A stretch of 38,528 nt of DNA from a virus (taxonomy: Duplodnaviria; Caudoviricetes): the IMG/VR virus record IMGVR_UViG_3300032163_000049, positions 1 through 38,528 of that record; one strand, 5' to 3'. Below, piece after piece: positions 2,478 through 29,531 of the stretch. The notes under the pieces were generated by a model. The model was not told the DNA's origin, ran no database searches, and worked only from the letters and a program-made list of their open reading frames with translations. The stretch's first letter is position 1. Each line of letters begins with the position of its first letter. The translations under genes and the position numbers were made by a program.

Positions 2478-2675
2478 ATGAAGATCAAGATTGTCGGATT
2501 CAAAGTCGGCAAGTCTCGTCCAATCACAAACAGAACCGCCACGCTTCCAAAGCGCCAGCCCGTCCCTCCCTACGATCGACCGAGAGAAGTCGCAGCGCTC
2601 GCAATCGGTTATCAAATCATCGAGGCCTGCGACCTGGGCAGCGACTTCATCAGCATACGGAGAGTAGACGAATGA
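2478..2675 (+). CDS. Hypothetical protein
   Basis: ATG 2478; stop overlaps the start of the ATPase (ATGA). Confidence 0.45.
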   Translation: MKIKIVGFKVGKSRPITNRTATLPKRQPVPPYDRPREVAALAIGYQIIEACDLGSDFISIRRVDE

Positions 2676-6720: not shown

Positions 6721-7450
6721 GTCATACAATATGCGCCGCAAGGTTGGTCTGATAGAGTTCGAGTTGCGTTGCCGCGACGGAACTGACTCTTCACGAGACC
6801 TCTAAGCGTGTGTTGATTTAGCTTCTGTTGAGGAAAGTGTTTTGAAAACTCTTCCAGTCTCATGGCTTGGCGGTAGAGGTCTTTATGCCTAACGTACAGG
6901 GCTTGCCATCTCGGAATGTCCTGGAACGGACAGATGAAGCAACCACTCTTCACGGGAATCGGCAGATGGGCGCTCCTAATGACTTCAATGCAATCCTCGC
7001 GCGTCATTTTCATGTCCACTAACGGAAACTCGCTCGTGACATAAGACTCTCTACTCGGCTTGATTCGTTCTACTTCGTCGTAAGCAATTCCAAGATACTC
7101 CGTAATGTGTGTCCCGAGTGACCGATAATATCTGTGAATCGGAGTTATCTTGTAGTCCCGTGTTGACCACCGCCATATCTTCGACGGAATTACACTCCGA
7201 CGCTTACAGGTATCGTACAAAGTTCCGTTTCTTGATCTGACAGTTTTCAACTCGATACCATGCTCATTCAGATATCTAGTCGCTACATCTAGGTACGCGT
7301 AAGTCTCCGGAAGCTCCGCGCCCGTATCGGCGAAGACAGCCACATCGAATGGCATTCTTCTCTCGATTAGAAGAACCATCAATGCATTTGTATTGACGCC
7401 GCCGCCGTAGGAAAGGATATGTGTCGTTTGCGTCGATTCTCCCTGCGCAT
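6717..7450 (-). pseudogene. PAPS reductase-family (PP-loop) protein, 5' frameshift
   Basis: HILSYGGGVNT, FADTGAELPETY, KSGCFICPF; ATG 7450 (MRRENRRKRH) is out of frame with SYGGG at about 7416-7423. Confidence 0.8.
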
Positions 7451-7492
7451 ATAAGGACTTGCCCTGCTATTTATGCCCTGCGATGCCCTGCG
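7441..7492 (-). promoter_or_regulatory. Promoter of the PAPS-reductase gene with GCAGGG repeats
   Basis: ATAAATA on the minus strand at 7468-7474; CCCTGC occurs four times on +, including tandem ATGCCCTGCG at 7473-7482 and 7483-7492. Confidence 0.5.
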
Positions 7493-7578
7493 TGAAATCG
7501 GCAACCTCGAATCATGATTGTTGCCGAATATAATTATCCGTCTTTCTTGCCCGCATGAGCCCCCCTCTTTCCCTTGGC

Positions 7579-8259
7579 TCACCAGCGCAACTCTTCATTC
7601 TCTATAATCTGCTCTACTTCCTCATGGCTTTTCACTCTGATTGCTGTCGGCTCTATGATCGCCAGCTTCCATTGCCCACCCACATCCCCATCGACTCGTG
7701 CCGTGTCAAAGAGGCATCGCGCAACTAACTTGCTCAGATTCTGAATGTCCATATTCGGTTGATAGTATCGCGCGAAAAGATAACGCGCAATCATTGGTTT
7801 GCCATCTAGAACAAATCCGTTTCCTCCCAACTCCAGCCTGTATCCCCTCTGACTCGAAAGTCCGTAGCATCTGGGCTCCGAAAATCCAGTACCGATCTTG
7901 TTGAGTCCTCCCAAGATGAATCCGATATCAGGGAAATATTGGTAGGTGGGAGAATGAAAGGAAAAGGTCGGAACATTGCTCAGCCTGATGGCTTCTGCTT
8001 GGCAAAACGAGGCGAAGCCCTCTGTCAAGTCTGTGACACCTAACTCTGCCGCGCCTGAAATCCTAGCCTGATACTTGGCGACCAGATGTTGGGCATATCC
8101 AGCTTCTCCGCAAAGGAGAACCGCGGCATGATCTGTAAGCCTGATTAGTTTCTCAGCGATGTTCGTCTCGACTCTAATCACCCCAACATCAACTGTCTCT
8201 CTGCTGTCCGCACCAAGAACCATGAAGTCCGCTCCCTGCGCGGCAACTATGAGAGTCAT
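7579..8259 (-). CDS. Proteasome beta-subunit-like Ntn hydrolase without propeptide
   Basis: MTLIVAAQGADFMVLGADSRET...AEKL...LLCG...DGDVGG matches Thr1/Asp17/Lys33/Gly47 and the DxxxGG motif; ATGA-coupled start with GGAGG. Confidence 0.85.
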   Translation of the reverse strand: MTLIVAAQGADFMVLGADSRETVDVGVIRVETNIAEKLIRLTDHAAVLLCGEAGYAQHLVAKYQARISGAAELGVTDLTEGFASFCQAEAIRLSNVPTFSFHSPTYQYFPDIGFILGGLNKIGTGFSEPRCYGLSSQRGYRLELGGNGFVLDGKPMIARYLFARYYQPNMDIQNLSKLVARCLFDTARVDGDVGGQWKLAIIEPTAIRVKSHEEVEQIIENEELRW

Positions 8260-8834
8260 TTGCTCGATTTCCTCCCTCCAAGCCATTCGGAGACTATTTC
8301 TGAGATGATTCCCTCAATCGGTTTCTTGGTCTCTCTGCTTGCTCCCTCAAGAGAGCGGTATAGTTCTTCGCGCATTGGAATTATGAGAACCCTCAGATTC
8401 TCGCGCTTCACCTGTTCTCCCGTAACCCTCTTTCGATAATCTAGCAAGTCGGTATGCGGGAATCGTAGAGCATGCTGAATTATGTCTCTCTGTTTCTTGT
8501 TGGAGATGCCCACGAGCATCTTCGCCACATCGTACTGCCTGTCGTTTGGTTGAATTGGGTTCAATCTTTGTGCGGAGTCGAAGAGAACAAGACGCTTTCT
8601 TACCAGTTCCTGAACTCTGGGGTCGAGCTTCTTCAATCGGAGAATTGAATTGAGCAGCGAAGGAGACACCCTCAACTTCTTCGTCGCATCGTTCACCGAA
8701 CCGAAATCCTCAACAACCTCTGAGCACTTCTCTGCGATAGTCATCCAATCGAGACGTTTGGTCTTTCTTCCCTTCAAGTCATAGTAGAGCTCCGCAAGGA
8801 GCTTCTCGGTTCGCTTCGAAATCTCACGCGGCAC
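8256..8834 (-). CDS. ParB-like HTH + C-terminal RHH protein lacking the ParB/Srx domain
   Basis: GSVNDATKKLRVSPSLLNSILRLKKLDPRVQELV HTH; RVLIIPMREELYRSLEGASRETKKPIEGIISEIVSEWL RHH; GTG 8834 preferred. Confidence 0.75.
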   Translation of the reverse strand: MPREISKRTEKLLAELYYDLKGRKTKRLDWMTIAEKCSEVVEDFGSVNDATKKLRVSPSLLNSILRLKKLDPRVQELVRKRLVLFDSAQRLNPIQPNDRQYDVAKMLVGISNKKQRDIIQHALRFPHTDLLDYRKRVTGEQVKRENLRVLIIPMREELYRSLEGASRETKKPIEGIISEIVSEWLGGRKSSK

Positions 8835-9678
8835 TTGTAAAGAACCTCTTGATGGCAGCATGGATTAGCTCGCTGACCGTGACCTTCTTTCCGAGCTTCC
8901 TGCCACGCCTCGCAGCCTCGGACTCAAGCATGTCGGCTTCATTCCGGCTAACCGTGACTCTGAATGTAACAAGAAGAGAAGGTTTCTTTGCCTCTTCGAT
9001 TATTCCCTGTACCTTTTCGTTCGGCTTTTCTCTCTTGATTTGAAGTGCCCGCTTGAATTCGGCTGCGGTCAGGCCGCCCATTTGATTCGCTATCGTGAGC
9101 ATTTCCTTCTCGTCGGGCCAGAATGCTGCTGTTATGTCGTGTGCTTTTTGATCCGTGAGTGTGCCATCATCTACCATCTTTTGCAGACTCTTCGGAACTA
9201 GCTGAGCTGACAGATACTCAATGACATCTTCCTTGGGCAATCCCAAGTCTGCTAAAATCTGGTTGACTTTCTGATCTTTTGAACCAGAATAAGCGTCGAA
9301 GAGCTTGCTCACAACGTCAATGGTGTCGCTGTATGGAAGCTCCCTACGATGAATATTCTCGCCGAAGGACACAAGGGACTTGGCAATCTCGCTCATGTCG
9401 TCCATGATTAGGGCTGGAATGTACTTCTTTCCCAACGCCTTCAGCGCGAGGAACCTTCTCTGACCCGCAACGCACTCGAACTTGTCGCCCCTTTGTATGA
9501 CCACGATTGGCTGAATTAGTCCGATTCTGTCGATGCTTCCCTCAATTTCTGGGAGTCCGTCTTCCTTCTCTGTCTTGCGGGTGTTCTGGGGCGAGATGTA
9601 AACCTGTTCCATAGGAAGATCCTTCCTGAAGTCCTTGAAGAGGACTTGACCGATTTTCGGTTTAGAACCATTTGTCAT
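8824..9678 (-). CDS. parB: ParB/RepB/Spo0J family protein with C-terminal RHH
   Basis: IGLIQPIVV, VAGQRRFLA (GxxR), ENIHRRELP; ATG 9678 overlaps the upstream stop. Confidence 0.9.
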   Translation of the reverse strand: MTNGSKPKIGQVLFKDFRKDLPMEQVYISPQNTRKTEKEDGLPEIEGSIDRIGLIQPIVVIQRGDKFECVAGQRRFLALKALGKKYIPALIMDDMSEIAKSLVSFGENIHRRELPYSDTIDVVSKLFDAYSGSKDQKVNQILADLGLPKEDVIEYLSAQLVPKSLQKMVDDGTLTDQKAHDITAAFWPDEKEMLTIANQMGGLTAAEFKRALQIKREKPNEKVQGIIEEAKKPSLLVTFRVTVSRNEADMLESEAARRGRKLGKKVTVSELIHAAIKRFFTSAA

Positions 9679-9917
9679 TCGTTTTTCCTCGGCCACTCCA
9701 TTACCAGTCTGCGGTAATCTTCTGCGGTGATTAAGCCTTGCTTCAGCTTTCCCTGAAGCTCTGTGACGTATTCCGCGAACCGTCTCCGCTGCTCTTGCCG
9801 TTCTCCCACCTTTTGAAGGGTTTGCATAAATTGGTCAATATCTTCAATCTCATGGACAAACCTGAGATGGTACAAGGTATCTCCGACCTTCTTGCCGCAG
9901 AAGGGGCATAGCCACAA
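9675..9917 (-). CDS. C2H2 Zn-finger protein
   Basis: CPFC...HLRFVH; C-terminal KQGLITAEDY (SHOCT-like) helix. Confidence 0.7.
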   Translation of the reverse strand: MWLCPFCGKKVGDTLYHLRFVHEIEDIDQFMQTLQKVGERQEQRRRFAEYVTELQGKLKQGLITAEDYRRLVMEWPRKNE

Positions 9918-11132: not shown

Positions 11133-11564
11133 TTGCCGCTCCGCAAGGGGCTGGATAAGCGTAGCCTATGGCATGAACGACGCAACAATCACGCTGACGC
11201 CAAGAAACCCAGCAACCATGCCGCATCGCTCGATGATCTCGAGATCCAGAGGGAGAGCGCCGCCCAAGGTCACAAGAAACCATCCAAGCTCTTCCACGAC
11301 CTGATCCGCTGGGAGCTCCATCGCACCAAACAGATCATGACTCAGATTCGCGCAGAACAACTCGACGCAATCTCTCGCGGCCAATATGATCCTCTCACTA
11401 TCGAGACGATCAGCAAAGAAGACGCGGCCCTTTCGGACGTGCAACGTGGCGATGTTTTGCGTGATGTGAAGATTCGTCCAACTGGCTACGTGCATCCTCG
11501 GCTTCGACCGCCTTCGATCAAAGAATTGAAGGAAAGAGAAGAAAATGTCGTTAGAAACGGTTAG
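11133..11564 (+). CDS. Hypothetical protein
   Basis: First ORF of the long + strand late region; overlaps the next start. Confidence 0.55.
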   Translation: MPLRKGLDKRSLWHERRNNHADAKKPSNHAASLDDLEIQRESAAQGHKKPSKLFHDLIRWELHRTKQIMTQIRAEQLDAISRGQYDPLTIETISKEDAALSDVQRGDVLRDVKIRPTGYVHPRLRPPSIKELKEREENVVRNG

Positions 11565-13194
11565 GAACAAGTACCAGAAATTCCTGATAGCGCTCGGCGC
11601 AACCTACATCACTCACACTCGAATGAAGATCATCGGAGGCAAAGAGACTAGGATTCCCTGTATCACAATCGGCTTTCCTAAGAAGGTCGAACCCGTTGCT
11701 CTCATGACCGAAAGTGAATTCGGGAAACTCTTCGAGGAATTCCAGAAAGGCAAGTTGCCGGGGCCAGAAAGCAGAACGCGAGTCGTTGATTCGCTCGGCC
11801 ACTCTCTTGAAGTCGCTCCCGTCATGATACCCAAGATCCTTGACGGAATGCACACCGACATCGAAGCGAGACCGCTGATAGATATTCCGAAACCCGTCAG
11901 CGGCCCCGCTGAGCACATGAAGAAATATCGCCCCGTCCCAGGAGGCGTCTCACTAATCGCCTGCGGCTCCTCGGCTTGCAGCTCACACTTCTGGGTTCGA
12001 GGAGATCCAACACACAAAGCCCACAAGGATTGTCTGAACTCTGGCTGGTATGGTACCATAGAGCTCGCTGGGAAGAAGTACACAGGCTGCTGGCATCTCG
12101 CCCAGAACTACCACTGCGGAATGAACTTCAGCACTGACGGCTCGCCCTATCCTGCGGGCCACGGATGGGCTCAACCTTCCCCCTATGATGGCGGAATCTG
12201 TCCGGCAGACATCGTTGCATATCGACATAGTTTCATCATTCCTGTTCAGCCATACCAGGAGAACGAATTTGACTATCTACTGACGAACGCAGCCGATCTG
12301 AATTATGTCAGCGCTGATGTTCTAGACTTTGGCGGAATCAGCATCGTCTATTGGGAACCGCAGGTCGATTGGGAATGCTGGAGCTCTTCACGGACAGAAG
12401 GAACCACTTCAGGTAAGATCATAGCCACTGAAGTCACGATCGGTGTCAACTATGAATTCTTCATCGCCTATGTGAACCATTGCATCGAGCATACAGCGAA
12501 GATCTCTGGCGGAAGCTCAGGCTCGAGCTTTCTCGCCAGGCCGTCGGGAGCAGCCATTGGCCTCGCAGGAGTCAACTTCGCAGGATCCTCGACAACGAAC
12601 TACGCTATCGCTCTGCCTGCCATCGCTCGAGATTACGGAGTCGAGTTTGATTGGGCCGCTCATCCTGATGGTGAGCAGCCTGAATGTCCACCCGGCCAGC
12701 ATTGGGATCCAACACAAGGCAAATGCGTACCTGATCAGCCTGAATGTCCGCCAGGTCAACATTGGGATCCAGACCAGGGCAAATGTGTCCCTGATGAGCA
12801 GCCGCCGACCGATTGCTGGACACCATTCCTCGAATGCATCTCAGGCTGGGACGGCTCTGATCTAGACTATCTCATCAACTGCATCGTTGGCCTAGTCGTG
12901 TGCCTAGTAGAGCAGGGCATGATAACGCGCAAACAGAAGCAGGCAATAGTCAACCTGGTGTTGAGCAAGGCCCGAGATAAGAAGTCGGTGACCAAGGTCT
13001 TGGAGAAGTACCAGCTAAAGGAGAAAGACTATCGAGGAGCATTCGCTCTCGGAACTCTGCTCGCATGCGGCATCTTCGGTGCCCTTTCGATCTGGTTCCC
13101 GAACGCGCTCGCGATATTCACTTTCTTCGGCGGCCTCACAGCCCGCGAGATCGAACACTACTTCAGCGCCAAAGGCAAAGAGCCGAAGGCGTGA
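11545..13194 (+). CDS. Trypsin-like (Nal1-type) serine protease with Cys-rich repeats and C-terminal holin-like TM region
   Basis: RPVPGGVS, QNYHC (His), QPSPYDGG, EFDY (Asp), SSRTEGTTSG, SGGSSGS (Ser), GVNFAGS; TM hairpin ending HYFSAK. Confidence 0.8.
   Translation: MSLETVRNKYQKFLIALGATYITHTRMKIIGGKETRIPCITIGFPKKVEPVALMTESEFGKLFEEFQKGKLPGPESRTRVVDSLGHSLEVAPVMIPKILDGMHTDIEARPLIDIPKPVSGPAEHMKKYRPVPGGVSLIACGSSACSSHFWVRGDPTHKAHKDCLNSGWYGTIELAGKKYTGCWHLAQNYHCGMNFSTDGSPYPAGHGWAQPSPYDGGICPADIVAYRHSFIIPVQPYQENEFDYLLTNAADLNYVSADVLDFGGISIVYWEPQVDWECWSSSRTEGTTSGKIIATEVTIGVNYEFFIAYVNHCIEHTAKISGGSSGSSFLARPSGAAIGLAGVNFAGSSTTNYAIALPAIARDYGVEFDWAAHPDGEQPECPPGQHWDPTQGKCVPDQPECPPGQHWDPDQGKCVPDEQPPTDCWTPFLECISGWDGSDLDYLINCIVGLVVCLVEQGMITRKQKQAIVNLVLSKARDKKSVTKVLEKYQLKEKDYRGAFALGTLLACGIFGALSIWFPNALAIFTFFGGLTAREIEHYFSAKGKEPKA
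12676..12795 (+). repeat. Two 60-bp tandem repeats encoding QPECPPGQHWDPxQGKCVPD
   Basis: Units 12676-12735 and 12736-12795; differences are mostly synonymous. Confidence 0.95.
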
Positions 13195-15683: not shown

Positions 15684-16145
15684 ATGACCAAGAAAAGACG
15701 GAAACGCGGGGGTCGTGTCCGAAAGCGCCGGAAAGAAAGGGGCCATAGCCACACCCCCCCTTACTCTCCGCCGAGCGTGGATCCGAAGATTAAGGGTCAG
15801 TATCTGAAGGCTCAGATTAGGAAGATCGAACGGCAGCTCGCTCCTCTCGGCATCAAGATTAACATAAACTCGCTTGAGGATCTCAAGGCTTTCGTCAACA
15901 AGCTGATGCAGCTTCAGGCGGACAAGAAGATCGAAAGCCACGAAACGAGAGTCCTGAATGATTCATGCGAGATCTTGAGGAAGATCTATCAGCCAAGCGA
16001 TCTCGAGGAAACCGTGAATGAGCTTCTCAAAGAGGCGCAAAGTCTCCGAGAAAGTGTCTCTGATCTTAGGAAGCATGGCGTCGGCCAAGGCGGAGCTCGA
16101 GGCGGTACGCAACCCGATTCCTCAGGATCCAGTCCAGTGGGCTGA
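15684..16145 (+). CDS. Putative terminase small subunit
   Basis: Immediately upstream of and overlapping TerL; basic N-terminus, helical; called on position only. Confidence 0.5.
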   Translation: MTKKRRKRGGRVRKRRKERGHSHTPPYSPPSVDPKIKGQYLKAQIRKIERQLAPLGIKININSLEDLKAFVNKLMQLQADKKIESHETRVLNDSCEILRKIYQPSDLEETVNELLKEAQSLRESVSDLRKHGVGQGGARGGTQPDSSGSSPVG

Positions 16146-17634
16146 ACGCATCCGAATCCTCAAGGGCGCTCCGTTCAGCTTCCAGGATCGAGACTATCTG
16201 CTTCCGCTCTACCGCGACAACTCGCACCGAGTCATCATCGTGAAATCTCGGCAGATGGAGATGACCGAGTGGATCGTCAACTGGCTTCTCTATAAGCTGA
16301 CCACGTATCCCTTCATAACCGCAATCTACACCGCGCCGCGAATGGATCAGGTTTCAAGATTCAGCCACGACCGATTCCGCAAAGCCCTATTCGACAGCCC
16401 AGAGCTCCGCGACTATATCAGCAAGGCGCGAGAGGCAGAGCTTGGAGAAACCGCGATCGGCAGAATCCCCTTCTCGAACGGCTCAATCTGCTATCTCATC
16501 AGCGCATGGGGAGACTTCGACGCTCTAAGAAACATTCCAGCAGACTTCGCAGCCATAGATGAAATGCAGGACGTCCAGCAAGAAGCGATCCCTGTCCTTG
16601 AAGAGACACTCAGCCACAGCCAATTCGGAACAATGATCATGGTTGGAACCGCAAGCGATGAGGGCTCGGAATTCTCGCGACTCTGGCAACAAAGCGATAT
16701 GAACGAATGGGATCCAGAATCAGGCGCATGGATTCCGCAGAGACCTCAGAACCGATTCTACTCAGGATATCACATAGATCAACGCATGGCTCCGTGGATC
16801 AACAGCCTCCCGCCCACTCATCCCAACAGCATAGAAGCCAAACGCATCCGCTACCGAAGCGAGCGCAGATTCCTCAACGAAGTTCTCGGCCTCTTCTATC
16901 GGGGTCTTGCTAAGCCGTTGATCTCTGAGGATCTTCTAGCTTGCAGAGACTTCCAATTCGCCCTGATGGATCACCTTGATCCGCCATACGTCTCGTATGC
17001 TGGCATTGATTGGGGCGGCGGACAACACGCCTTCACCGTCGTCTGGATCATGGCGAAGGACGATAAAGACCGCTGGCGACTCATCTACGTTCGCAAATTC
17101 GATGAACGCGACCCCATGAAGCAAGTCCAGATCATCAGCAACCTCATCCCGCTCTTCAATGTGAAACAGGCCGTGGCAGACATCGGATACGGTGCCGTAC
17201 AAGTCAGCGAGCTCCAGAAGAAGTTCGCTGATCGACTCCTCGGCTGCCAATACACTCGCAGACCCGAGATCCCTCTTGAGCGTCGAACCTCAGACGAGTA
17301 TGGCAAGCGAGTCGCGCAGATGCTTCTCCTAGCTGACCGCTCATTCTGGATTGAGACCGCTATCGAGCTGATCAAGCATAAGGATCCAACTGGCGCAGTC
17401 AATCCGCTGCTAGTCATTCCATGGGCTGAACCGCTCGACGTCGAATGGATCATTGAGCAATTCACCTGCATCGAGATGGAGGAGCAGGAGACCGTTAGCG
17501 GCAAGAAGTATCATCACTACACGCATCCAGAAGGCGAACCTGACGACGCGCTTCACGGATTCATCTATGCGCTGATCGCTGATGCCTATGGCCGCATGGC
17601 TCCGCCTCTAGTCGTACAAGACCTATTCGGATGA
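16018..17634 (+). CDS. terL: Terminase large subunit (GpA-like)
   Basis: IVKSRQMEMTE (Walker A variant), FAAIDEMQD (Walker B), VGTA coupling motif, RNase H-like AGIDWGGG, VADIGYG, PDDALHG. Confidence 0.93.
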   Translation: MSFSKRRKVSEKVSLILGSMASAKAELEAVRNPIPQDPVQWAERIRILKGAPFSFQDRDYLLPLYRDNSHRVIIVKSRQMEMTEWIVNWLLYKLTTYPFITAIYTAPRMDQVSRFSHDRFRKALFDSPELRDYISKAREAELGETAIGRIPFSNGSICYLISAWGDFDALRNIPADFAAIDEMQDVQQEAIPVLEETLSHSQFGTMIMVGTASDEGSEFSRLWQQSDMNEWDPESGAWIPQRPQNRFYSGYHIDQRMAPWINSLPPTHPNSIEAKRIRYRSERRFLNEVLGLFYRGLAKPLISEDLLACRDFQFALMDHLDPPYVSYAGIDWGGGQHAFTVVWIMAKDDKDRWRLIYVRKFDERDPMKQVQIISNLIPLFNVKQAVADIGYGAVQVSELQKKFADRLLGCQYTRRPEIPLERRTSDEYGKRVAQMLLLADRSFWIETAIELIKHKDPTGAVNPLLVIPWAEPLDVEWIIEQFTCIEMEEQETVSGKKYHHYTHPEGEPDDALHGFIYALIADAYGRMAPPLVVQDLFG

Positions 17635-17924
17635 ATGAGAAAGAAGGAGAATACGCCGTGCCAAGTGGTGTCATATCGTTCAGTGGCAGCGACGAAGATA
17701 AGCAGAGGCTACGAGAATACTTCCGCACGGAAATCAAAGGGCACTTCCATAAAGTCCACATGAATCGTCTGCATTGGGCTTTCTATCGGTTGCGATACAA
17801 GCTGATGGGCAAGCCATGTCCACGATGCCAGGCCAGCATCAATTTCTGGAAGAACCGCGAGCGTCCGCCTTTGATGTTCTGTACGCCATCACGATGTGCG
17901 ATCTGCGGCAGATTCTCCGTTTAG
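17631..17924 (+). CDS. Small protein: copy of portal residues 295-330 fused to a Cys-rich Zn ribbon
   Basis: EYAVPSGVISFSGSDEDKQRLREYFRTEIKGHFHKV, 31/36 aa identical to the portal; CPRC...C...CAIC; ATGA-coupled to terL. Confidence 0.85.
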   Translation: MNEKEGEYAVPSGVISFSGSDEDKQRLREYFRTEIKGHFHKVHMNRLHWAFYRLRYKLMGKPCPRCQASINFWKNRERPPLMFCTPSRCAICGRFSV

Positions 17925-19141: not shown

Positions 19142-22100
19142 GTGAGTCTCCCGCAGCCCAGCGGCGAACATGCTGTGGCAACCGTCGCAGACACTTCTCC
19201 GTTAATTCAAGCAAACCAAGTTGAAGAGAAATTGGTGTCAGCATTACGCATAGTCTCAGCGGATCCCCTAGTTCGGGATAGGCTCAATCGCCTAGAGGAC
19301 AACACTATCACGAAAGGCGTCATGGACACGATCTATCCCTGGTGGTGGGATGAGAGAGAGTTTCCAAGACGCGCCGTCATGACAGAGTGGTTCTATAATC
19401 CGCTGAAAGGTCAGCCTAGGTACATAGATGTCTACCGTTACCGTAGCCTAGCGGCTTCTGAATGGGTAGCCATGTGCGTCATGACAATCATTGAAGAGGT
19501 CGCGCAGATTCCGTGGGAGATCATCCCGAAGGATCCTAAGCTCCGCGAGTCTCCGCCGGAAGATATTCTAGCGGACATTGATGAGGCCACATACTTCTTC
19601 AACAATCCGAACGACAACAAAGGCGAAACTCTGAACACTCTCCTGCGAGCTCTCATACGGGACAGCCTAGAACTTGACGCGGCAACGCTTGTGAAAGGCT
19701 TCTCACTGAACAGCTATGTGCAGCATCCCGCTGGCGGATTCGAACTTAAACCCCGAGGCCAAAGACAACTCAGCGAACTCTTCTGTCGAGACGGAGCTTC
19801 CTTCTTAAAAGAGACTGATGTCAACGGAATCGAATACCGCTACTGGCAGTACAGCTATTTGCATCCCGCTGTCGCACCGATCGAGTTCGACGTGAATGAG
19901 ATCGCCTATGCGATGCGTTACAACCGCTCATACAGCGTCTACGGCTGGGCTGAGACTCAAAGCGCCGAGACAATTCTGAACTGTCTCATCAATTCGGCTT
20001 TCACGAATGCCAGCATGTTCCAGGAATACGCTGTGCCCTCAGGCGTCGTTTCCTTCACTGGCAGCGAGGAAGATGAGCAGAGGCTACGGGAATACTTCCG
20101 CACGGAAATCAAAGGCCGCTTCCACAAGGTCGCCATACTCAACAAAGAAGCAAAATTCACACCGCTAACCTACACGAACCGAGACTTGGAGTTCATCAAA
20201 GGCCAAGAATGGTTCGCAAAAATCATGTGGGCGATCTACAAACTCACACCAAGCGAAGTCGGCTTCACCGATGATATTCGAGCTACAGGCGCGGCGATGT
20301 CCGCTCAAGGCACGATCCAAAAACGCAAAGCCATCCTGCCATTACTCAGACTCCTAGAACAGATCCTTAACAATCAAATCCTGAATGAAATCTCTGACCG
20401 CATAGTTTTGTCGTTCAAGTATGTTGACAAGGAACAGGAAGCTCTCGAAGATCAAATGGACTTCCAGAAGATTCAGCAAGGCATTATGAAAATCAACGAG
20501 TACCGTGCCAGAAAGAAGCTAGGCCCGTCTGTTCCATGGGGTGAGAAACCGCTTCAACTAACCCTCGCCGAACTGAAAGGAGGCCAACAGCCCGGCCTCT
20601 TCGGAGCTCCCAAGCCACATCTGAACATTCCAACAGGACCAGAAAAGGGCATACCGAAGATACCGCTCACAGCCGAAGACCAAGCCATCGTTGAAGGCAT
20701 GAAAGCATGGGGCGGCGTCCCAACTGAAGGCTACGATTTCGCAGAGGGCTCACTCGGCGGAAACAATCTCTACGCGGCTCCAGTTCTCACCTATGATAAC
20801 AGAACCGGCCAGGTGAAAATTCTCCCACAAGGCGCAATGACGATCCCAGGCCGACGCTACATAACCCGAGATGGAAAAGTATTCTATGTTCCACAACGGA
20901 AGCCGCTGCCCGTTAAACCATCTCAACCAACGAAGACGATCCTGCGTTCACCGAAGAACAAAGGGTTCCGAGATACCTCAGCCGATGTTCTGAAACAATA
21001 CTTGAAGCCGACTCGAGAACCTTTCATCGGCCCCTATGAAGGCGACCGGAAACCGCGACCTAAGCCCATGAGCGGAGTTGGCGGCAACCCAAAAGAATCA
21101 ATCCGGGACGGCATGATGCTGCCTGGAGAAAGCCCTGAAGAAATACGTCGAAGCCGCGATGCAACCGGGCCTAAAGCTGGGAGACCAAGAGCACGCCAAA
21201 GCGGCGGATCCGACCAGGACTACCCGATGGGCGCGTTAGCGTACAGGCCCGACGAGCCCGTTAGAGACAACGACCTCAGCCCAGAGCAAACCCCTGAAGG
21301 AATCGCCCGCGCTCGCGTCAGCAGGGAATATGAGCGGCCCACGAAACCCTTCGGACCAATCCATCACACTGACACGCAACGCACAGGACCAAAAGATTCC
21401 TATCAAGGCGGACCTGGCAACATCGGCGGCCAGTACAAGCGCAGGCAGGGCGGGCGCATACGCAAGATCGGCCATCCACCGCCCGGCGAAGGACCACAAT
21501 CTACAGGTGAAGTTTATCGTGGCAAACAGCAGCGGAAAGAGAAAGTTGACCTGCATCGAGGCGGGATGGGAGCTCATCGCTGGGAACGTGACGAAAGCAA
21601 TGTTCCAATCGCAACCGTGACAGAAGAATCCGGCGCTCACATTGATCCGCACTACATGAAGAAACCTTACCCGGGCAGACATCGAGAAATCACTGAAGGC
21701 GGCGGTTATGATGTTGAATCACGAATCGTTCCCACACGGGCAGGAACTCCGAAAATCATTGACGCTTCAATTCCTCATGATGACCGCGCCTATCTAGATC
21801 GTAAGTTTGTTCGTGTGAAGCTGTCTAAAGCTGATTTGAACATTGACAACGTGTGGAAAACCCATGACATGTCTGAAGCGCGAATGAACGAATACTTTGA
21901 CATGTTCGATGAAGAACGGAAGGAACACCCAGGTTTCACGCGGGAGCAGATTTGGCAAATCGTCAAAGACCACATGCGGGAGAAAGGTTTAGCGCCGAAA
22001 GCTCGCAAACGACCAACACAGCCAGATAACGCTCCAATCGCCCCGCTCGCCCAGCCAAGAGAGAACTTGGATCCTACAGGGGGCGCAAGCACCGAGCAGG

Positions 22101-23683
22101 CACCAAGGCTGAAGCCTACGCCCACGATTCCTAGAGGACCGAAATATCCGAAAGATGTTCCACCAGTTCAGCCCGATACAGGCGCAATAGGCGCTATGAG
22201 AGCAACAGCTCCAAGCGGAGCAAAATATGTTCTACGGGATAAGCGGGGAGCTCCACCACCCTTCAAGAAATCTGAGAGCACGGATACGGGCAGCCTCGGC
22301 CCAGACCACCGCGAAACCCTCGGCTACACGGAACGTGACTTGTCGAAAGTTCACGATAATGTGCAGCGCAGCGCATCAGCCCCAGAAAGCAAACAGGTCA
22401 ACGCCTACGATACTCGAGAGGAATGGAAAGGCGGACGACTCGAGACGCGCCTCATATCCGCGCCCAAGAAGGCTCAGATCCGCGAGGCCGCCCGACTCGG
22501 ACGGAAGCCTCTCAGCAGCTCAGCCAGTGCGAAACTCAGCCCCCTAGATGTTAAGATGGTTCCGCCAATTCCTAGCAAGGCAGGGGGCAAACGACGCGAA
22601 GCCTCATTCCTCAAGACGCTCATTCCACCGCATGATTTGTACGTGGAGCCGTTTGCAGGCGGCGCAGCCCTATTCTTCATGCTGGACGATCCTGGGAGAG
22701 TCGTTCTAAACGATGTAAACCCAAGATTCACTAAGGTATGGCAGTGGATCAAACAGGCTACGCCCGAACAAGCAAAATCCATGATGAACCGACCTTGGGC
22801 AGCGACAAGAGAAAGATGGTTCCATGTACGAGATCAGTACAAGCCCAAGACTCTGGACGATGAGCTTTGGCAGCTCCTCTACGTGACCCGTCACAGCTTC
22901 ATGAACCGCGGGGATACTTGGCGCGGGAATCTTGGTTCTCCAGATCGAGAGAGGTCGCAGAATAGCGCTCCAAATTGGCTGAGCAGGCTTGATCAGTACA
23001 AAGAGCAGCTATCGCAAGTCAAGATAGAGAACAAAGACTGGAAGGAGATTGTTCATCAGTACGATTCACCAAACACGTTCTTCTACTTTGACCCGCCCTA
23101 TGAAGAAAAGTTCGTGCCCGATCTCATCAAGACCCTGCCCACTTTGAAGGGGAAGTGGCTGCTTAGTTTCGGCGAGAACGAACGGTTAGCACGTGGTTTG
23201 TCTTCAAAGGGAATGCATACCTTCATTGTGCCTGTCACGAACACAATCAACAAGCCAACAGGAGAAAGGCGCACGATGCGCCGAGAACTCATCGCCGCCA
23301 ATTACCCGATCGATGTGCCGAAAGATCTGGTGTTCAAAGCGGCTGCGATTGGTTCTGAGCACACGCACTCCGACACTTTCCGAGGCCCCGTCAAAGCCGA
23401 GTATGGCTTGGCTAGGCGCCTCACAGAAATCATGAAAGCCTTCATAGCTGGCCGGTTGACGCGAAGCCAAGCCCTCACGGAAGGCCACAAAGCCATAGAT
23501 GACAACCAAGCCCGAATCGCAGAGATCGCTAGGAAACATGCAAGGCGAGCTATCGGCAAAGACGTTGTTGAGCTCGCGCCAGAGGTTGCGGGCCGCTTAG
23601 AACAGATCCGAACCCAATCCCTCAGCGACTTCGACAGGATCCTCGAGGACGCGAACTCATCCCGTATCGCGGGGACGCTTTGA
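19142..23683 (+). CDS. Portal protein fused to a long disordered region, a Dam-like (D12 class) N6-adenine DNA methyltransferase and a C-terminal helical domain
   Basis: Portal about aa 59-480 (WVAMCV...IPWEI, NPN, VYGWAE, VPSGVV, DLEF, PSEVG, INEYR); MTase aa 1139-1388 (AGGK, YVEPFAGG, LNDVN, FYFDPPY, ELIAANY); single stop-free frame. Confidence 0.92.
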   Translation: MSLPQPSGEHAVATVADTSPLIQANQVEEKLVSALRIVSADPLVRDRLNRLEDNTITKGVMDTIYPWWWDEREFPRRAVMTEWFYNPLKGQPRYIDVYRYRSLAASEWVAMCVMTIIEEVAQIPWEIIPKDPKLRESPPEDILADIDEATYFFNNPNDNKGETLNTLLRALIRDSLELDAATLVKGFSLNSYVQHPAGGFELKPRGQRQLSELFCRDGASFLKETDVNGIEYRYWQYSYLHPAVAPIEFDVNEIAYAMRYNRSYSVYGWAETQSAETILNCLINSAFTNASMFQEYAVPSGVVSFTGSEEDEQRLREYFRTEIKGRFHKVAILNKEAKFTPLTYTNRDLEFIKGQEWFAKIMWAIYKLTPSEVGFTDDIRATGAAMSAQGTIQKRKAILPLLRLLEQILNNQILNEISDRIVLSFKYVDKEQEALEDQMDFQKIQQGIMKINEYRARKKLGPSVPWGEKPLQLTLAELKGGQQPGLFGAPKPHLNIPTGPEKGIPKIPLTAEDQAIVEGMKAWGGVPTEGYDFAEGSLGGNNLYAAPVLTYDNRTGQVKILPQGAMTIPGRRYITRDGKVFYVPQRKPLPVKPSQPTKTILRSPKNKGFRDTSADVLKQYLKPTREPFIGPYEGDRKPRPKPMSGVGGNPKESIRDGMMLPGESPEEIRRSRDATGPKAGRPRARQSGGSDQDYPMGALAYRPDEPVRDNDLSPEQTPEGIARARVSREYERPTKPFGPIHHTDTQRTGPKDSYQGGPGNIGGQYKRRQGGRIRKIGHPPPGEGPQSTGEVYRGKQQRKEKVDLHRGGMGAHRWERDESNVPIATVTEESGAHIDPHYMKKPYPGRHREITEGGGYDVESRIVPTRAGTPKIIDASIPHDDRAYLDRKFVRVKLSKADLNIDNVWKTHDMSEARMNEYFDMFDEERKEHPGFTREQIWQIVKDHMREKGLAPKARKRPTQPDNAPIAPLAQPRENLDPTGGASTEQAPRLKPTPTIPRGPKYPKDVPPVQPDTGAIGAMRATAPSGAKYVLRDKRGAPPPFKKSESTDTGSLGPDHRETLGYTERDLSKVHDNVQRSASAPESKQVNAYDTREEWKGGRLETRLISAPKKAQIREAARLGRKPLSSSASAKLSPLDVKMVPPIPSKAGGKRREASFLKTLIPPHDLYVEPFAGGAALFFMLDDPGRVVLNDVNPRFTKVWQWIKQATPEQAKSMMNRPWAATRERWFHVRDQYKPKTLDDELWQLLYVTRHSFMNRGDTWRGNLGSPDRERSQNSAPNWLSRLDQYKEQLSQVKIENKDWKEIVHQYDSPNTFFYFDPPYEEKFVPDLIKTLPTLKGKWLLSFGENERLARGLSSKGMHTFIVPVTNTINKPTGERRTMRRELIAANYPIDVPKDLVFKAAAIGSEHTHSDTFRGPVKAEYGLARRLTEIMKAFIAGRLTRSQALTEGHKAIDDNQARIAEIARKHARRAIGKDVVELAPEVAGRLEQIRTQSLSDFDRILEDANSSRIAGTL

Positions 23684-23687
23684 GGAA

Positions 23688-23836
23688 ATATTTAAGCCAT
23701 CAGAACCATCGCGCACGAGAATGGTTCTGCCTGTAGCCTCATGCTCACGCAAAAGAGAGATGGTAGGGAAGCCAAGTCGTTGCGTGAGCCCTACCATCCT
23801 CACCCAGGATTTTCCATGAGGATTTATCATGAGCAT
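23688..23836 (+). promoter_or_regulatory. TATA box plus highly structured leader upstream of MuF
   Basis: ATATTTAA at 23688-23695; several perfect 7-10 bp complementary pairs (see findings). Confidence 0.6.
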
Positions 23837-24146
23837 CGCAGCGGAAGATTTCTGGAAAAGCCTCAAGGGCCTACTTGCTCGCCTAGCCGACCTGTCGCAT
23901 CACCTCACATGGAGCAGCCTCAACACAGCCATCCGTGAACAATTCGCCGTAGTCGAAGATGACTATCAAACCGTAACAGGCGAGCCGTCAGGCCGGAAAC
24001 TTGCATGGACCACCATGGGCGATGAGAAGGTTTGCGACATCTGCGAAGGCAATGAAGGCGAATATGATCCCGCTGAAGAATTTCTACCGACCATGCCCGC
24101 TCATGTAACCTGCCGCTGTTGGTGGCAAATAAACGAAGGCGACTAA
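23829..24146 (+). CDS. MuF/SPP1 gp7-like head morphogenesis protein, C-terminal core only
   Basis: WTTMGDEKVCDICE...MPAHVTCRC. Confidence 0.85.
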   Translation: MSIAAEDFWKSLKGLLARLADLSHHLTWSSLNTAIREQFAVVEDDYQTVTGEPSGRKLAWTTMGDEKVCDICEGNEGEYDPAEEFLPTMPAHVTCRCWWQINEGD

Positions 24147-24254: not shown

Positions 24255-24716
24255 TTGATCAGCGAGCAGCTAATCGAGGAAATCCTAGCTCAGAAGAGCA
24301 CTCCTCGCACCAGTCCGCTATTCGTATTGCCAGCCGATGATCAAAAAGGATTGCTGAACGAAAATCCATCGAACTCTTCCCGATCCCGAATGTATGTGAG
24401 AAGCAAATTTGGAAATGGCCTAGAAACGGGTTGCCTCCAATCGTTGAAGTACTCAAGAAACAGAGTCAAGAAAGCAGTACAACTCTTGCGAAAGAAACAC
24501 TACTTAGTATTGCCGCTTGATGGAACCTGTAAAGTAATCAATCTGATTGCTGTGAGTCCTGACTCGCAAAGACTTGTCATACAAGTCAAATCAGGGAACG
24601 CGAAGCCGACGCAGCAGGAACGAATCGCATTGAAGTTTCTGGCTTCACGATTTCAAGCTAGAGCAGAGGTCTGGACATTCAAGAAGAGACAGCCCCTCAA
24701 AGTTGAGACCCTATGA
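24255..24716 (+). CDS. Second, degenerate Hjc-like PD-(D/E)xK protein
   Basis: LLRKKHYLV...VINLIAV...VIQVKSG...QERIAL; true start uncertain. Confidence 0.65.
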   Translation: MISEQLIEEILAQKSTPRTSPLFVLPADDQKGLLNENPSNSSRSRMYVRSKFGNGLETGCLQSLKYSRNRVKKAVQLLRKKHYLVLPLDGTCKVINLIAVSPDSQRLVIQVKSGNAKPTQQERIALKFLASRFQARAEVWTFKKRQPLKVETL

Positions 24717-25953: not shown

Positions 25954-28269
25954 ATGCCGAAGCGTCCGCCGAAGAAATGGTTCGATGAGAAGTATCGTGA
26001 GATAGGTGCGGGTCTGCGTAAGGCTCATCCTGACTGGTCTAAGGACACACTTGCTGAGCGTACTAGGGCTACTGTTGGGAACATTTGGCATAACGTCATG
26101 AGTGCAGGCCAACGGAGAGCCCGAGTCTCCGAAGCTGAACGCAAGAAAGCATTCTATGGGATTCTTCGGAAAGCTGGGCTCGGTAAGACCGCAGCGTACA
26201 ATCTTGCTGTTAGCACAGTGAAAGATTTCGGCGGCTGGACCTCGCAGAATCTGGATTGGGAGCGCGGATACCGGGAAGGCGAACGAAAAGAGGAAGATCG
26301 CCAGAGAGGAATCAAGGTTCAACGTTCAAGACAGGCGCAACTGGACAAGAAGCAGACTCACCAACTTGAACGATACACGAACCCAGACAATCCCGTTCGG
26401 ATTGAGCAGCGTAGAGAAAGACGATCTGGACTAGGCTATCGTGCTGGGGAACGAAAAGAGCAGCATCAAGAACCTGGGACAGTTGTAGCAAGCGTGGCCC
26501 GGGGCAAGGACCATCTCGGCCCCTTAGCTGACCCTGAGTTTCACGGCGAACCATTCTACGCCGACGCAGAGGAAGAGCCAACATACGTTGACTTGGGCGA
26601 TGTGGTTGAAGGCAAAGGTGAAGTTCACCCTGAAATGGCGAAAGTGCAAGACCACCCAGGCCAATCATGCGACGACGCTCACACAGGAATGAGCCACGAG
26701 CATTTCATGGCTCATCAAAGCCAGAAACAATTCTACGGGCGCGGCCCGGTTGTTCTGCCGCTGAAGATCAAACGATACTCACTCTTCATGCCCTTCGAAG
26801 TCAAAGTTGCCACAAAATCATTCGGCGAAGTCAAAGCAGGCGATCTCCTGGTTGAAGGTTTCGTAAGCGCACCAATCAAAGACCTACAGGGCGATGTGCT
26901 GGAAACCCCAGCTCTCGTTGAAGCTAAAGAGGCGATGGTTCGAGCCCCACACAACCTCATTTGGTTAGATCATGAGTCACCGTATGCGAAGCCGATTGAG
27001 AATCAGGGCACGCCTCCGATTGGAAAATTCATTGAATCCAAGATTCTGAAGATCGGCGGATTGCCCGCCCTCTGGGCTCGGTGGCTTGTCAATAAAGCTC
27101 ATCCGAACTTCAAGCAGGTCGCTTACGAGCTGAAGAACGGATTCTACAACGCCATGAGCATGGAGTTCGTGCCCATTCGTCAATCGCAGAAATGGATAGG
27201 CACGAAACTCGTCAATGCGATTTCCAGCATCAAATATTTTGCGACTAGCCTGGTGCGAGCGCCAGCGAATGAAGTCGCAACCATAACCCGAGTCTACGAG
27301 AAGGCGTTCGCAAATTCTTCACGGTTCTTGCCCATTCGTGTGAAGAGCACGCTTGGGTTTGGACAAACCGTAATAACAAAAGGAGAAAATGGAAAATTGC
27401 CAAAAAGAAAGGAAGCGGAACCCGAAAACGAACCAGAACCAGAACTTGAACCAGAACTAGAGCCAGAACTCGAACCTGAACTAGAGCCCGTACCTGAACC
27501 GGGACGCGCAGCCATCAAAGAAGCGGAGCCTGAACCTGAGAGCGATTCGGACGATGGAGATGGCGACGATGATGACGATGACGAGACACCAGAATTTCCC
27601 TACTCGCGTAAGGACTACGACCGGGAAACCGGCTACGTGGCGCCCGAGAGGGCTACAACCGCGATAGGTGAATGGGGAGATCCCGCCCTCGAGAAAGGTC
27701 GCGCCGCTATCAAACGCATCGAACGCATCGAGAAGTATCTCAGCGGTAGCAGCAGAGCCCTCAACAAAGGCATGAACACTCTGTACGGCAACGAGCTTTA
27801 TCTACGGTCCCAAGGTCAACGGCACACTGCATTCTTGAAAGCCATCGCGAAAGCGGTAGGCGTCGAGACGAAAGGAATTGACGAGGACACCCCTGAGACA
27901 TTGGGTGTCTACGAAGATTTCGCCACGATAACCGATGAGCAGAAGCCGCCTGAAGTCAAGCCGGGCAAATTGAAGCCACGCCCGCAACGTTTCATCAGCA
28001 CCTTCCCAACAGACGACGAGGACACTGAAGAAGCAGACGACCAAGAAGTCGGCGGAGAACCCGTCGGCGTCAAAGGCCTACAACGCTACGTCAAAGGACT
28101 TGTCAGGAAAGTTGTTGACGAAACTGTTCAGAAGAAGATCGTTGTCCGGAAAGGTTACGCGGAACACGCTGGACCTGTGCCGGAGAGCGTTCGCAGAATG
28201 CAAGCCATCCAACAGGACGACGGCAGCCTAGACTCGCAGCTCGCAGTCATTGAAGCAGGAGGTCAATAG
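25954..28269 (+). CDS. HK97-type prohead protease with long N-terminal extension and C-terminal scaffold region
   Basis: LVEGFVS...DLQGD...WLDH...PIGK...NAMSMEF...SLVRAPAN; directly upstream of MCP. Confidence 0.88.
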   Translation: MPKRPPKKWFDEKYREIGAGLRKAHPDWSKDTLAERTRATVGNIWHNVMSAGQRRARVSEAERKKAFYGILRKAGLGKTAAYNLAVSTVKDFGGWTSQNLDWERGYREGERKEEDRQRGIKVQRSRQAQLDKKQTHQLERYTNPDNPVRIEQRRERRSGLGYRAGERKEQHQEPGTVVASVARGKDHLGPLADPEFHGEPFYADAEEEPTYVDLGDVVEGKGEVHPEMAKVQDHPGQSCDDAHTGMSHEHFMAHQSQKQFYGRGPVVLPLKIKRYSLFMPFEVKVATKSFGEVKAGDLLVEGFVSAPIKDLQGDVLETPALVEAKEAMVRAPHNLIWLDHESPYAKPIENQGTPPIGKFIESKILKIGGLPALWARWLVNKAHPNFKQVAYELKNGFYNAMSMEFVPIRQSQKWIGTKLVNAISSIKYFATSLVRAPANEVATITRVYEKAFANSSRFLPIRVKSTLGFGQTVITKGENGKLPKRKEAEPENEPEPELEPELEPELEPELEPVPEPGRAAIKEAEPEPESDSDDGDGDDDDDDETPEFPYSRKDYDRETGYVAPERATTAIGEWGDPALEKGRAAIKRIERIEKYLSGSSRALNKGMNTLYGNELYLRSQGQRHTAFLKAIAKAVGVETKGIDEDTPETLGVYEDFATITDEQKPPEVKPGKLKPRPQRFISTFPTDDEDTEEADDQEVGGEPVGVKGLQRYVKGLVRKVVDETVQKKIVVRKGYAEHAGPVPESVRRMQAIQQDDGSLDSQLAVIEAGGQ
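27436..27483 (+). repeat. Four 12-bp units encoding EPEL, followed by an Asp-rich tract
   Basis: GARCCWGAACTN x4 with synonymous variation. Confidence 0.9.
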
Positions 28270-28271
28270 AA

Positions 28272-29531
28272 ATGAGCCACCTGAAATTAGTTGACCCCGA
28301 ACAAGGCAGAGCTACAGGAGCAGGCGGAGGAGAAGCTGCTCGACCATACTACTCCACAGTGGACAGAGCACTTCTAACACCGCCCGTTCAAGGAGGAACA
28401 CCCGCAGGTATCCTTGCTGGCCTAGTTGGATTAGCAGCCTTCCCTGAAGGCACCGTAATCTACGAAGGCTTGAAGGATAACGGGGAACTCGGCCTAGACC
28501 ACCGCCAAATGTACCTCGGCTGGATTCGCAAGAAGATGCGTCTACGCAGCCTACGCACCAAAGGCTACTTGGACTCAACCAGCGCCATCGTTCACACCAC
28601 AACCGACCAAGAGATCATAGATACCACACGCCGAGAAACACCACTCTTAGAGCTCATCGCCCAAGAAACCGCCCGAGGCAAAGTCGCCAACTACGATGTA
28701 CTAACCGCCAGAGCATCGGCTTTTGGTGTGAGTGAAACAACCGCAGCCAAGACGCCGGGTAGCGACACCTATGTGAACGCCTCAAAACCCGTCAACATTT
28801 TCACAGCATGGGGTGGATGGACTGACTTGGGCTTAGCTACAATGGCAAGCCAGTACCCAACCCGTGACGCGAGAGCCATCGAAATCCGCAACAAGACATG
28901 GAGCCTCAACGAAACTGATGAGAACGAAATCCTCAACGGAGGAACTACACTTGAATCAGCTTTCAACTCAGGCGGAGACAACTTAGGATTCATTGGCATA
29001 AGAGCTGAAATCATCGGCTCATCCGGAACCTACGCACAGCTACAGTCAAACCTGAACGGCGCAGATGCCTCAGACACTGACATAGACAACATGATCGCGC
29101 AAATGGTCCTGTTGAACGTCAAACCCAACTTGGCCGTCACGGACTTGATGACATGGCAGAAGATCAAGCAGCTAATGATGTCCATTGTCCGGTACGCGAA
29201 CCCTGAGACTGAGATCGCTTGGGGTCTCAAAGCACTCGCATGGGCTACGCCTTACGGTGTCATGCCGTTCATAGGCAGCAAGTTCATGCCCGCCACAGCA
29301 GGCAGCCGAGAAATCATCTTCCTCGACACCAAGTTCCTCGCGCAAAGGCTACTCTTGGACAGCACGATGGAGATGCTTGCGAAAGTCAGCATACAGCAAC
29401 CCTTCGTCATCAAACGATTCTTCAACTCCATAGACAAGACAGACTCGAAGCCACCCAGCTACGTCTACAACACAAACCCGACCTCAACGGACGCCACGTC
29501 GAAGATGGGCCGCATCTACAACTTATCATAG
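28272..29531 (+). CDS. Major capsid protein (HK97 fold)
   Basis: Position after protease/scaffold; RRETPLLELI, ENEILNG, FIGIR, TPYGVMPFIGSKFMP, IIFLDT. Confidence 0.88.
   Translation: MSHLKLVDPEQGRATGAGGGEAARPYYSTVDRALLTPPVQGGTPAGILAGLVGLAAFPEGTVIYEGLKDNGELGLDHRQMYLGWIRKKMRLRSLRTKGYLDSTSAIVHTTTDQEIIDTTRRETPLLELIAQETARGKVANYDVLTARASAFGVSETTAAKTPGSDTYVNASKPVNIFTAWGGWTDLGLATMASQYPTRDARAIEIRNKTWSLNETDENEILNGGTTLESAFNSGGDNLGFIGIRAEIIGSSGTYAQLQSNLNGADASDTDIDNMIAQMVLLNVKPNLAVTDLMTWQKIKQLMMSIVRYANPETEIAWGLKALAWATPYGVMPFIGSKFMPATAGSREIIFLDTKFLAQRLLLDSTMEMLAKVSIQQPFVIKRFFNSIDKTDSKPPSYVYNTNPTSTDATSKMGRIYNLS

What the first reader, a model, noticed from the sequence alone, without database searches (positions are those of the whole stretch)
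19142..23683. Portal protein fused in one frame to an intact Dam-type DNA adenine methyltransferase
Seen: one 1513-aa ORF comprising portal (about aa 59-480), about 650 aa of Pro/Gly/Arg/Lys-rich low-complexity sequence with a small helical island (EERKEHP...QIVKDHM), a D12-class MTase with intact FAGG and DPPY motifs (22556-23305) and a 115-aa helical tail. Established: portals are dodecamers with the C-terminus inside the head; MuF/portal fusions can carry enzymes into virions. Inference: up to 12 MTase copies are loaded in the procapsid, either methylating the genome as it is packaged or being released and ejected to protect incoming DNA from restriction before any gene expression.
Basis: partly seen in the sequence, partly recalled or inferred. 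Interest (0 to 1): 0.87.

Follow-up and report, generated by a model that had tools for sequence, protein, structure and literature searches.

The report
Portal protein carrying swappable methyltransferase cassette
A tailed virus from sediment, probably of archaea, builds an intact-looking DNA adenine methyltransferase into its portal protein as an optional, lysine-bracketed cassette that relatives also carry in other head-region proteins, and the head protease likely cuts it free inside the capsid so that it travels with the genome and shields it from host restriction.

Summary
The fusion is real. The 1513-aa ORF holds a portal and a D12 (Dam-fold) adenine methyltransferase with intact FAGG and DPPY motifs. 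Independent assemblies show the same join at 32-97% MTase identity, in two portal families. The MTase is an optional 261-aa cassette (aa 1139-1399). A portal identical to aa 1040 lacks it, both alleles coexist in two samples, and relatives carry it after the tail, inside portal-MuF proteins or inside a neighbouring gene. It starts right after Lys in 22 of 22 cases and ends at Lys in 18 of 18, like the conserved Lys borders of the capsid protein and the S78 prohead protease. Best reading (about 0.55): up to 12 copies enter the procapsid, are cut out, stay in the head and methylate viral DNA on entry. Cleavage, packaging and activity are untested. 'Dam-type' holds for the fold only; the target is unknown. 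Portal-borne enzymes and virion MTases (P1 DarB) are published. This scan earlier found D12 MTases on head proteases in other DNA, but no portal fusion. New variant of a known kind.

The parts
16018..17634 (+). Terminase large subunit (context)
   Evidence: Pfam GpA_ATPase 1.5e-10
19142..23683 (+). Whole portal polyprotein ORF, 1513 aa, 171 kDa
19142..19315 (+). N-terminal leader aa 1-58, ending at candidate cut K58|G59
   Evidence: K at or one residue before this place in 16 of 16 relatives that reach it; 11 of 27 start later; cleavage inferred
19316..20578 (+). Portal core, predicted mature form aa 59-479 (48.9 kDa)
   Evidence: PF04860; PHROG portal families; K479 in 17 of 27 relatives
20579..22555 (+). 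Mosaic Pro/Gly/Arg/Lys-rich linker, net charge +28
   Evidence: no PHROG match; blocks differ among relatives
21893..21985 (+). Small helical island, optional and position-variable
   Evidence: own profile finds it in 12 of 27 close portals and weakly in portal-MuF proteins P0040, P0032, P0039; no NCBIfam hit
22556..23338 (+). D12-class adenine MTase cassette, aa 1139-1399 (30.6 kDa), between K1138|M1139 and K1399|A1400
23339..23683 (+). Conserved helical tail, 114 aa, present with or without the MTase
   Evidence: own profile finds it in 24 of 27 close portals; no PHROG or Atlas hit
23829..24146 (+). Separate short MuF-like gene
   Evidence: PF04233 3e-4, below cut-off; present in 10 of 10 viral loci
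25954..28269 (+). Prohead protease/scaffold; protease domain about 26800-27351
   Evidence: ESM Atlas 0.97 to Peptidase_S78 clusters; TIGR01543 E 0.0026, below cut-off; C-border VY.K|AF in 8 of 8 loci; own AlphaFold model failed
28272..29531 (+). Major capsid protein with candidate cut K97|G98
   Evidence: SU10_MCP and phrog_25898; TK at this place in 8 of 8 loci, followed by G in 7

Best explanation
The portal gene is a polyprotein whose long C-terminal extension holds an optional D12 adenine methyltransferase cassette, which likely rides into the procapsid on up to 12 portal subunits, is likely cut out at its two lysine borders by the prohead protease, and would then stay in the head and methylate the virus's own DNA on entry to blunt host restriction. 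Shown: the in-frame fusion, its recurrence, the optional and mobile cassette, the Lys borders, the Dam-like predicted fold with intact motifs. From established knowledge (recalled unless cited): portals are 12-mers (PMC12749128) whose C-terminal crown faces the head interior; HK97 protease cuts at K103/S104 (PMC10275583); prohead proteases can trim portals (PMC10052503); a methylase-bearing protein is packaged for anti-restriction in P1 (PMC5512222, PMC9024508). Inferred: cleavage here, retention, ejection, activity and purpose. The target sequence is unknown.
For: Recurrence: portal+D12 in P0002-P0004, L008, L010, P0045, P0047, P0048, P0196, P0200, P0212 (Pfam portal below cut-off), P0165 (portal by own profile only). 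Cassette behaviour: exact replacement of a 7-residue segment; P0010 identical to aa 1040 and without MTase; label on 8 of 32 portals needs 6 changes, 5 forced by well-supported branches (quick tree); MTase-less joins at depth 103 and 29.8 beside MTase contigs at 19.8 and 4.2 in X5 and X9. Borders: Lys before the cassette in 21 of 21 parsed rows (17 distinct upstream contexts, background 5.4%) plus the dropped row P0198; Lys at the end in 18 of 18 in-frame rows. Same kind of border in capsid protein and protease (8 of 8 each) and portal N-terminus (16 of 16). In 103 more distant fused D12 domains Lys peaks 9-10 residues before motif X (38 against about 8 per position), with no matching Met peak. 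Enzyme kept: pLDDT 84, EcoDam TM 0.69; window versus L008 differences by codon position 79/48/154, dN 0.28, dS saturated. Restriction pressure: CCGG 0.54, TGCA 0.65 and several 6-bp palindromes at 0.1-0.3 of expectation (small counts). Other cargo on related portals: ART-PolyVal-like in P0004 (E 0.0017, below cut-off), JAB-like and zincin-like motifs (read by eye).
Against: No virion, expression or activity data. A Lys-site motif is not enriched in head proteins over other proteins (14 of 125 versus 23 of 355 Lys, p 0.12; two looser motifs p 0.20 and 0.49). Lysines in the portal core are as conserved as the candidate sites. The residue after the N-border is always Met and the Lys codon is AAG in 5 of 5 DNA loci (genome 118 AAG to 120 AAA), which fits an internal start or a recombination footprint as well. 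The C-terminal border lies on a predicted strand (258-260), so it may be structural. In P0043, P0044, P0046 and L029 the cassette sits inside another MTase-like protein that cutting would split. Most relatives do without it in the portal, palindrome avoidance is shared by MTase-less relatives, and three alleles are frameshifted. The protease's Lys specificity is inferred.
Confidence: 0.55

Rival explanations
1. In-capsid methylation: the enzyme, tethered or freed, methylates the genome as it is pumped in. Confinement would let a relaxed-specificity MTase modify only packaged DNA and spare the host and viral replication.
For: It sits where DNA enters. The TRD lacks the Dam hairpin. Relaxed-specificity Dam-related MTases exist at the mom position of Mu-like prophages (PMC3299994, passages). 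No cassette of this clade was found as a clear stand-alone gene among the top 120 of 503 short hits.
Against: Sibling cargoes (ART-like, ligase, metallo-beta-lactamase, NUDIX) need host cofactors or targets, which points to ejection. Kinship to Hia5 was not tested. Packaging is fast against MTase turnover (recalled).
Confidence: 0.2
2. Nested gene: a free MTase is made from the internal ATG at 22556 and methylates progeny DNA in the cytoplasm; the fusion is incidental.
For: Met follows the border in 22 of 22 cases at the spacing of stand-alone D12 starts; AAG-ATG in 5 of 5.
Against: No Shine-Dalgarno-like stretch seen by eye before the ATG in 5 of 5 loci, whereas the capsid gene and the 30668 gene have GGAGG. 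There is no stop after the MTase in the window, so the product would keep the tail. Distant fused D12 domains keep the Lys without a Met.
Confidence: 0.13
3. Hitch-hiking: the cassette spreads by recombination at short Lys-codon repeats into tolerant loops of late genes, is trimmed off with the linker and degraded, and gives little benefit.
For: Minority allele where both are seen; patchy distribution; frameshifted copies; duplicated portal end around the cassette in L008; AAG at both borders in 4 of 5 loci.
Against: Intact motifs across 32-97% identity, purifying selection, open downstream frames even in frameshifted copies, and no transposase, intein or homing nuclease motif in the cassette.
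Confidence: 0.1
4. Assembly artefact joining separate genes.
For: No single contig spans the ORF; one assembly gives pieces.
Against: The same architecture in many independent assemblies and two portal families.
Confidence: 0.02

Closest known systems
Phage polyvalent proteins and MuF/portal-fused effectors (Iyer et al. 2017, PMC5512222; PMC9503650; passages read)
   Same: Enzymes fused to portal, MuF or the capsid-processing peptidase (PBECR, 2H, InPase, Nudix, ART), proposed to be packaged, released by peptidases and injected.
   Different: Their MTases are mostly gamma-class EcoKI/TaqI-like and tied to a SWI2/SNF2 helicase. The passages I saw name no D12 MTase on a portal. Their supplementary architecture lists could not be read and may hold one.
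Phage P1 DarB (PMC5512222, PMC9024508; passages read)
   Same: MTase-containing protein packaged in the head that protects DNA in cis from restriction.
   Different: DarB is a separate 250-kDa MTase-helicase with an N-terminal targeting signal, about 40 copies. Here a lone 30-kDa D12 domain is covalently part of the portal precursor.
SPN3US head maturation (PMC10052503; passages read)
   Same: The prohead protease trims the portal and ejection proteins at a short motif.
   Different: Glu-specific (AXE), N-terminal propeptides, giant phage; no enzyme inside the portal precursor.
Dam family (EcoDam, T4Dam, M1.DpnII)
   Same: Same predicted fold (TM 0.62-0.69), motif order, FAGG and DPPY.
   Different: 14-22% identity, below the TIGR00571 cut-off, no recognition hairpin in the model; GATC specificity not expected.
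Hia5/Hin1523/Nma1821 relaxed-specificity MTases (PMC3299994; passages read)
   Same: Dam-related phage MTases with a divergent TRD, proposed broad anti-restriction.
   Different: Stand-alone genes at the mom position. Sequence kinship to this cassette was not tested.
D12 MTases fused to XkdF-type (S78_2) head proteases
   Same: Same MTase class as head polyprotein cargo with upstream Lys borders: 9 of 37 long distant ORFs, P0005-P0007; noted before in this scan.
   Different: Carrier is the protease; 0 of those 37 had a portal by Pfam. They are 24-35% identical to this cassette.

Membership tests
D12-class (alpha) N6-adenine MTase | Pfam PF02086 above cut-off | tested here: met
   77.9 bits versus 22
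D12-class (alpha) N6-adenine MTase | Motif I before TRD before DPPY, Dam-like fold | tested here: met
D12-class (alpha) N6-adenine MTase | Forms m6A on DNA | not testable with these tools
   needs an assay
Dam (GATC-specific) | TIGR00571 above cut-off | tested here: not met
   82.2 bits versus 114.85
Dam (GATC-specific) | TRD beta-hairpin that reads GATC (role recalled) | tested here: not met
   hairpin sequence of DpnM and T4Dam not kept; no strands at 113-128 in the model, pLDDT 70-75 there
Dam (GATC-specific) | GATC skew in the genome | tested here: inconclusive
   observed/expected 0.95
HK97-like portal | PF04860 above cut-off, between terminase and protease/capsid genes | tested here: met
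   TIGR01537 below its equivalog cut-off
HK97-like portal | Dodecamer with crown inside the head | not tested
   established for portals generally; not modelled
Phage polyvalent / portal-fused effector | Several disparate domains in one head-module polypeptide, variable among relatives | tested here: met
Phage polyvalent / portal-fused effector | Packaged and injected | not testable with these tools
   no cultured virus or proteome
DarB-type MTase-helicase dyad | Gamma-class MTase with LPD36 and SWI2/SNF2 helicase | tested here: not met
   only portal and D12 found
Hia5-like non-specific MTases | Sequence kinship and relaxed specificity | not tested
   no reference sequence was fetched
Intein or homing element | Splicing motifs or endonuclease in the insert | tested here: not met
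   borders are K|M and FK|; no Hint or nuclease family
S78 prohead protease (25954-28269) | Family match | tested here: inconclusive
   Atlas 0.97 with 197 shared features; TIGR01543 weak; no Pfam hit; fold failed

The most novel reading that the evidence does not exclude
A mobile, protease-excisable methyltransferase cassette hops among portal, portal-MuF and neighbouring head-module proteins of archaeal tailed viruses, turning the portal into a fixed-copy loader that modifies only the genome sharing its capsid, with a slippery G-run switching the cargo on and off in some lineages.
Probability: 0.3. Interest if true: 0.85.

Novelty: new variant of a known kind. Interest (0 to 1): 0.63.

Why it matters
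It would show the portal, usually seen as a compact conserved motor part, acting as a cargo precursor with swappable enzymes, and would extend virion-delivered anti-restriction to probable archaeal viruses. The exact borders make testing easy: the cassette can be expressed alone, and portal plus protease plus capsid genes can be co-expressed. A Lys-bracketed slot that takes a 30-kDa enzyme would also be a simple way to load proteins into capsids.

Tried and rejected
Genome-wide enrichment of a Lys cut motif: not significant. AlphaFold of the protease domain: pLDDT 32, unusable; Pfam scan of its alignment gave nothing useful. Atlas search of the tail: no usable hit. Host: the scan of GTDB genomes found no provirus, only one 24%-identical bacterial portal; cluster members carry no organism names; the Bathyarchaeia virus preprint (10.1101/2023.08.24.554615, passages) describes only stand-alone MTases, so the host stays unassigned. 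Archaeal signs: Hjc, archaeal proteasome-beta as best weak hit, HSTV-1 portal as lowest E-value among the 15 listed of 159 phage records. No RNA holder listed. The metagenome scan read only 8 of 64 parts and added one clade member, L029. MTase specificity could not be read from word counts. The link of the tail to the MuF N-terminal half was tested by profile and not shown (one marginal hit). The careful portal tree did not finish; the quick tree was used. The MTase tree has long outgroup branches and was used only to show mixed carriers. No complex was predicted. Literature: searches listed no paper describing a portal-D12 fusion (1, 9, 1 and 5 papers matched; I read passages of PMC5512222 and PMC9503650 and saw the rest as listings only); one search matched nothing. 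Subscription papers and the Iyer 2017 supplements were not visible.
Full report
Observation. The frame 19142-23683 is open for 1513 codons. Pfam finds a portal (aa 109-457) and a D12 adenine MTase (aa 1147-1322), both above cut-off. The gene lies in a head module: terminase, portal, short MuF, protease/scaffold, capsid, adaptor. The record is a 38.5-kb virus contig, probably partial, since relatives of 47-52 kb are rated 58-64% complete. Contigs from 7 runs beyond the likely source cross the linker-MTase join (8 of 24 runs laid; contigs only; none spans the ORF).

Recurrence. Among 8 long hits to the MTase, 3 carry portal and D12 (P0002-P0004, 97, 59, 52%). Among the top 120 of 503 short hits, 3 more do, on a second portal family (P0045, P0047, P0048). 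Among the best 150 representatives at 50% clustering, 9 matched my portal or MuF profiles (one profile was built from some of them). Pfam gave weak portal hits for P0196, P0200, P0212 and MuF hits for P0165, P0201 (28 of the 150 scanned). Of 10 viral loci with this portal, 4 have the MTase: the source record, L008, L010 and frameshifted L006. Five of the records without it have no PF02086 anywhere, but they are 9-64% complete.

It is a cassette. P0010 is identical to the window's protein up to aa 1040 and has no MTase; empty alleles have 7 residues where filled ones have the cassette. On a quick portal tree the label (8 of 32 rows, counting frameshifted ones) needs 6 changes and is no more clustered than shuffles (117 of 500 as low). 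In runs X5 and X9 contigs skip the MTase at five to seven times the depth of those that hold it (depth is a rough figure). The cassette occurs before the tail, after the tail (L008, L006, P0009, P0018), inside portal-MuF proteins, and inside a class-I-MTase-like gene behind MuF (P0043, P0044, P0046, L029), whose empty alleles are in L002-L005. Two MTase-less portals share source and contig length with such filled neighbours (P0010 with P0319, P0011 with P0315), which suggests alternative carriers but was not confirmed on DNA.

Borders. The residue before the cassette is Lys in 21 of 21 parsed rows from 17 different upstream contexts, against 5.4% background; the one row my pattern dropped, P0198, has it too. 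The cassette ends in a hydrophobic-Lys motif in 18 of 18 in-frame rows. The capsid protein has TK at aa 96-97 in 8 of 8 loci, the protease domain ends at VY.K|AF in 8 of 8, and the portal leader ends at Lys in 16 of 16. HK97 is cut at K103/S104 (PMC10275583, passage), and the protease here resembles S78. Against: a Lys motif is not enriched genome-wide (p 0.12-0.49); core lysines are equally conserved; Met always follows the N-border and the codons are AAG-ATG in 5 of 5; the C-border is on a predicted strand. I saw no ribosome-binding stretch before that ATG. Cleavage is therefore likely, not shown.

The enzyme. The model is confident (pLDDT 84) and matches EcoDam, DpnM and T4Dam (TM 0.62-0.69). 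Motifs are intact in the in-frame copies (P0198 escaped the motif I pattern) and selection is purifying. It fails the Dam cut-off and lacks the hairpin; GATC is neutral. Nearest cultured-phage relatives are stand-alone MTases at about 30%. Specificity is open. Palindromes are depleted, as expected under restriction, but also in MTase-less relatives.

Mechanism. Shown: fusion, mobility, borders, fold. Established: 12 portals per head (PMC12749128, passages), crown inside the head (recalled), portal trimming by a prohead protease (PMC10052503, passages), a packaged MTase protein acting in cis (PMC5512222; PMC9024508; passages). Inferred: the 171-kDa precursor assembles, the protease leaves a 49-kDa portal and a 31-kDa MTase too large to leave the shell, and the enzyme goes in with the DNA. 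I give this 0.55, methylation during packaging 0.2, an internal start 0.13, hitch-hiking 0.1 and artefact 0.02.

Comparison and novelty. Enzymes on portals, MuF and head peptidases are described and predicted to be injected (PMC5512222; PMC9503650, passages). D12 MTases on XkdF proteases are common (9 of 37) and were noted before in this scan; look-ups by sequence, place and portal words found nothing. My searches listed no paper on a portal-D12 fusion, but supplements and subscription papers were not visible. It works like DarB and the polyvalent proteins, is a D12 MTase, and is neither a Dam nor a DarB member. New here: the portal carrier, the precise mobile Lys-bracketed cassette, coexisting alleles and possible phase variation. 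The host is probably archaeal but unassigned. Verdict: real, new variant of a known kind, interest 0.63.

Noticed in passing
window 17631-17924: Small ORF holding a 108-bp, 84%-identical copy of portal codons near aa 295-330; seen only in the window and its source record among 10 loci.
   Followed up: partly
L006 about 12437-12446; P0009, P0018: A run of nine G in the FAGG codons shifts the MTase out of frame in L006; P0009 and P0018 leave the frame at the same place while the downstream frame stays open in L006 and P0041. Possible phase variation or slippage.
   Followed up: partly
window 24255-24716: Looks chimeric: the first 15 aa match the class-I-MTase-like gene of L002 and L003, the rest the Hjc-like gene several kb downstream there; a deletion seems to have removed the alternative carrier.
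   Followed up: partly
L008 12340-13201: The portal's last ten residues are repeated on both sides of the MTase cassette, like an insertion footprint.
   Followed up: partly
P0004, P0021, P0026, P0029-P0031: Other cargo on the same portal family: ART-PolyVal-like (weak Pfam), zincin-like HEMGH, a possible ART-like domain and a JAB-like domain (the last three read by eye).
   Followed up: no
window 6717-9696, minus strand: Block of ParB, ParB-HTH, proteasome-beta-like and PAPS-reductase-like genes; may be a DNA-modification or defence module.
   Followed up: no
window 11545-13194: 549-aa protein with a protease-like domain (phrog_20754) and two Cys-rich repeats.
   Followed up: no
L010 4827-6017: The MuF gene carries what looks like an intein, by motifs read by eye.
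   Followed up: no
L031, L110-L120, L131, L135, P0172, P0174: Large polyproteins combining D12 MTase with ATP-dependent ligase, metallo-beta-lactamase-fold, NUDIX or XkdF protease domains.
   Followed up: partly
window 2672-4180 and 1523-1945: HerA-like ATPase and Hjc-like resolvase.
   Followed up: no
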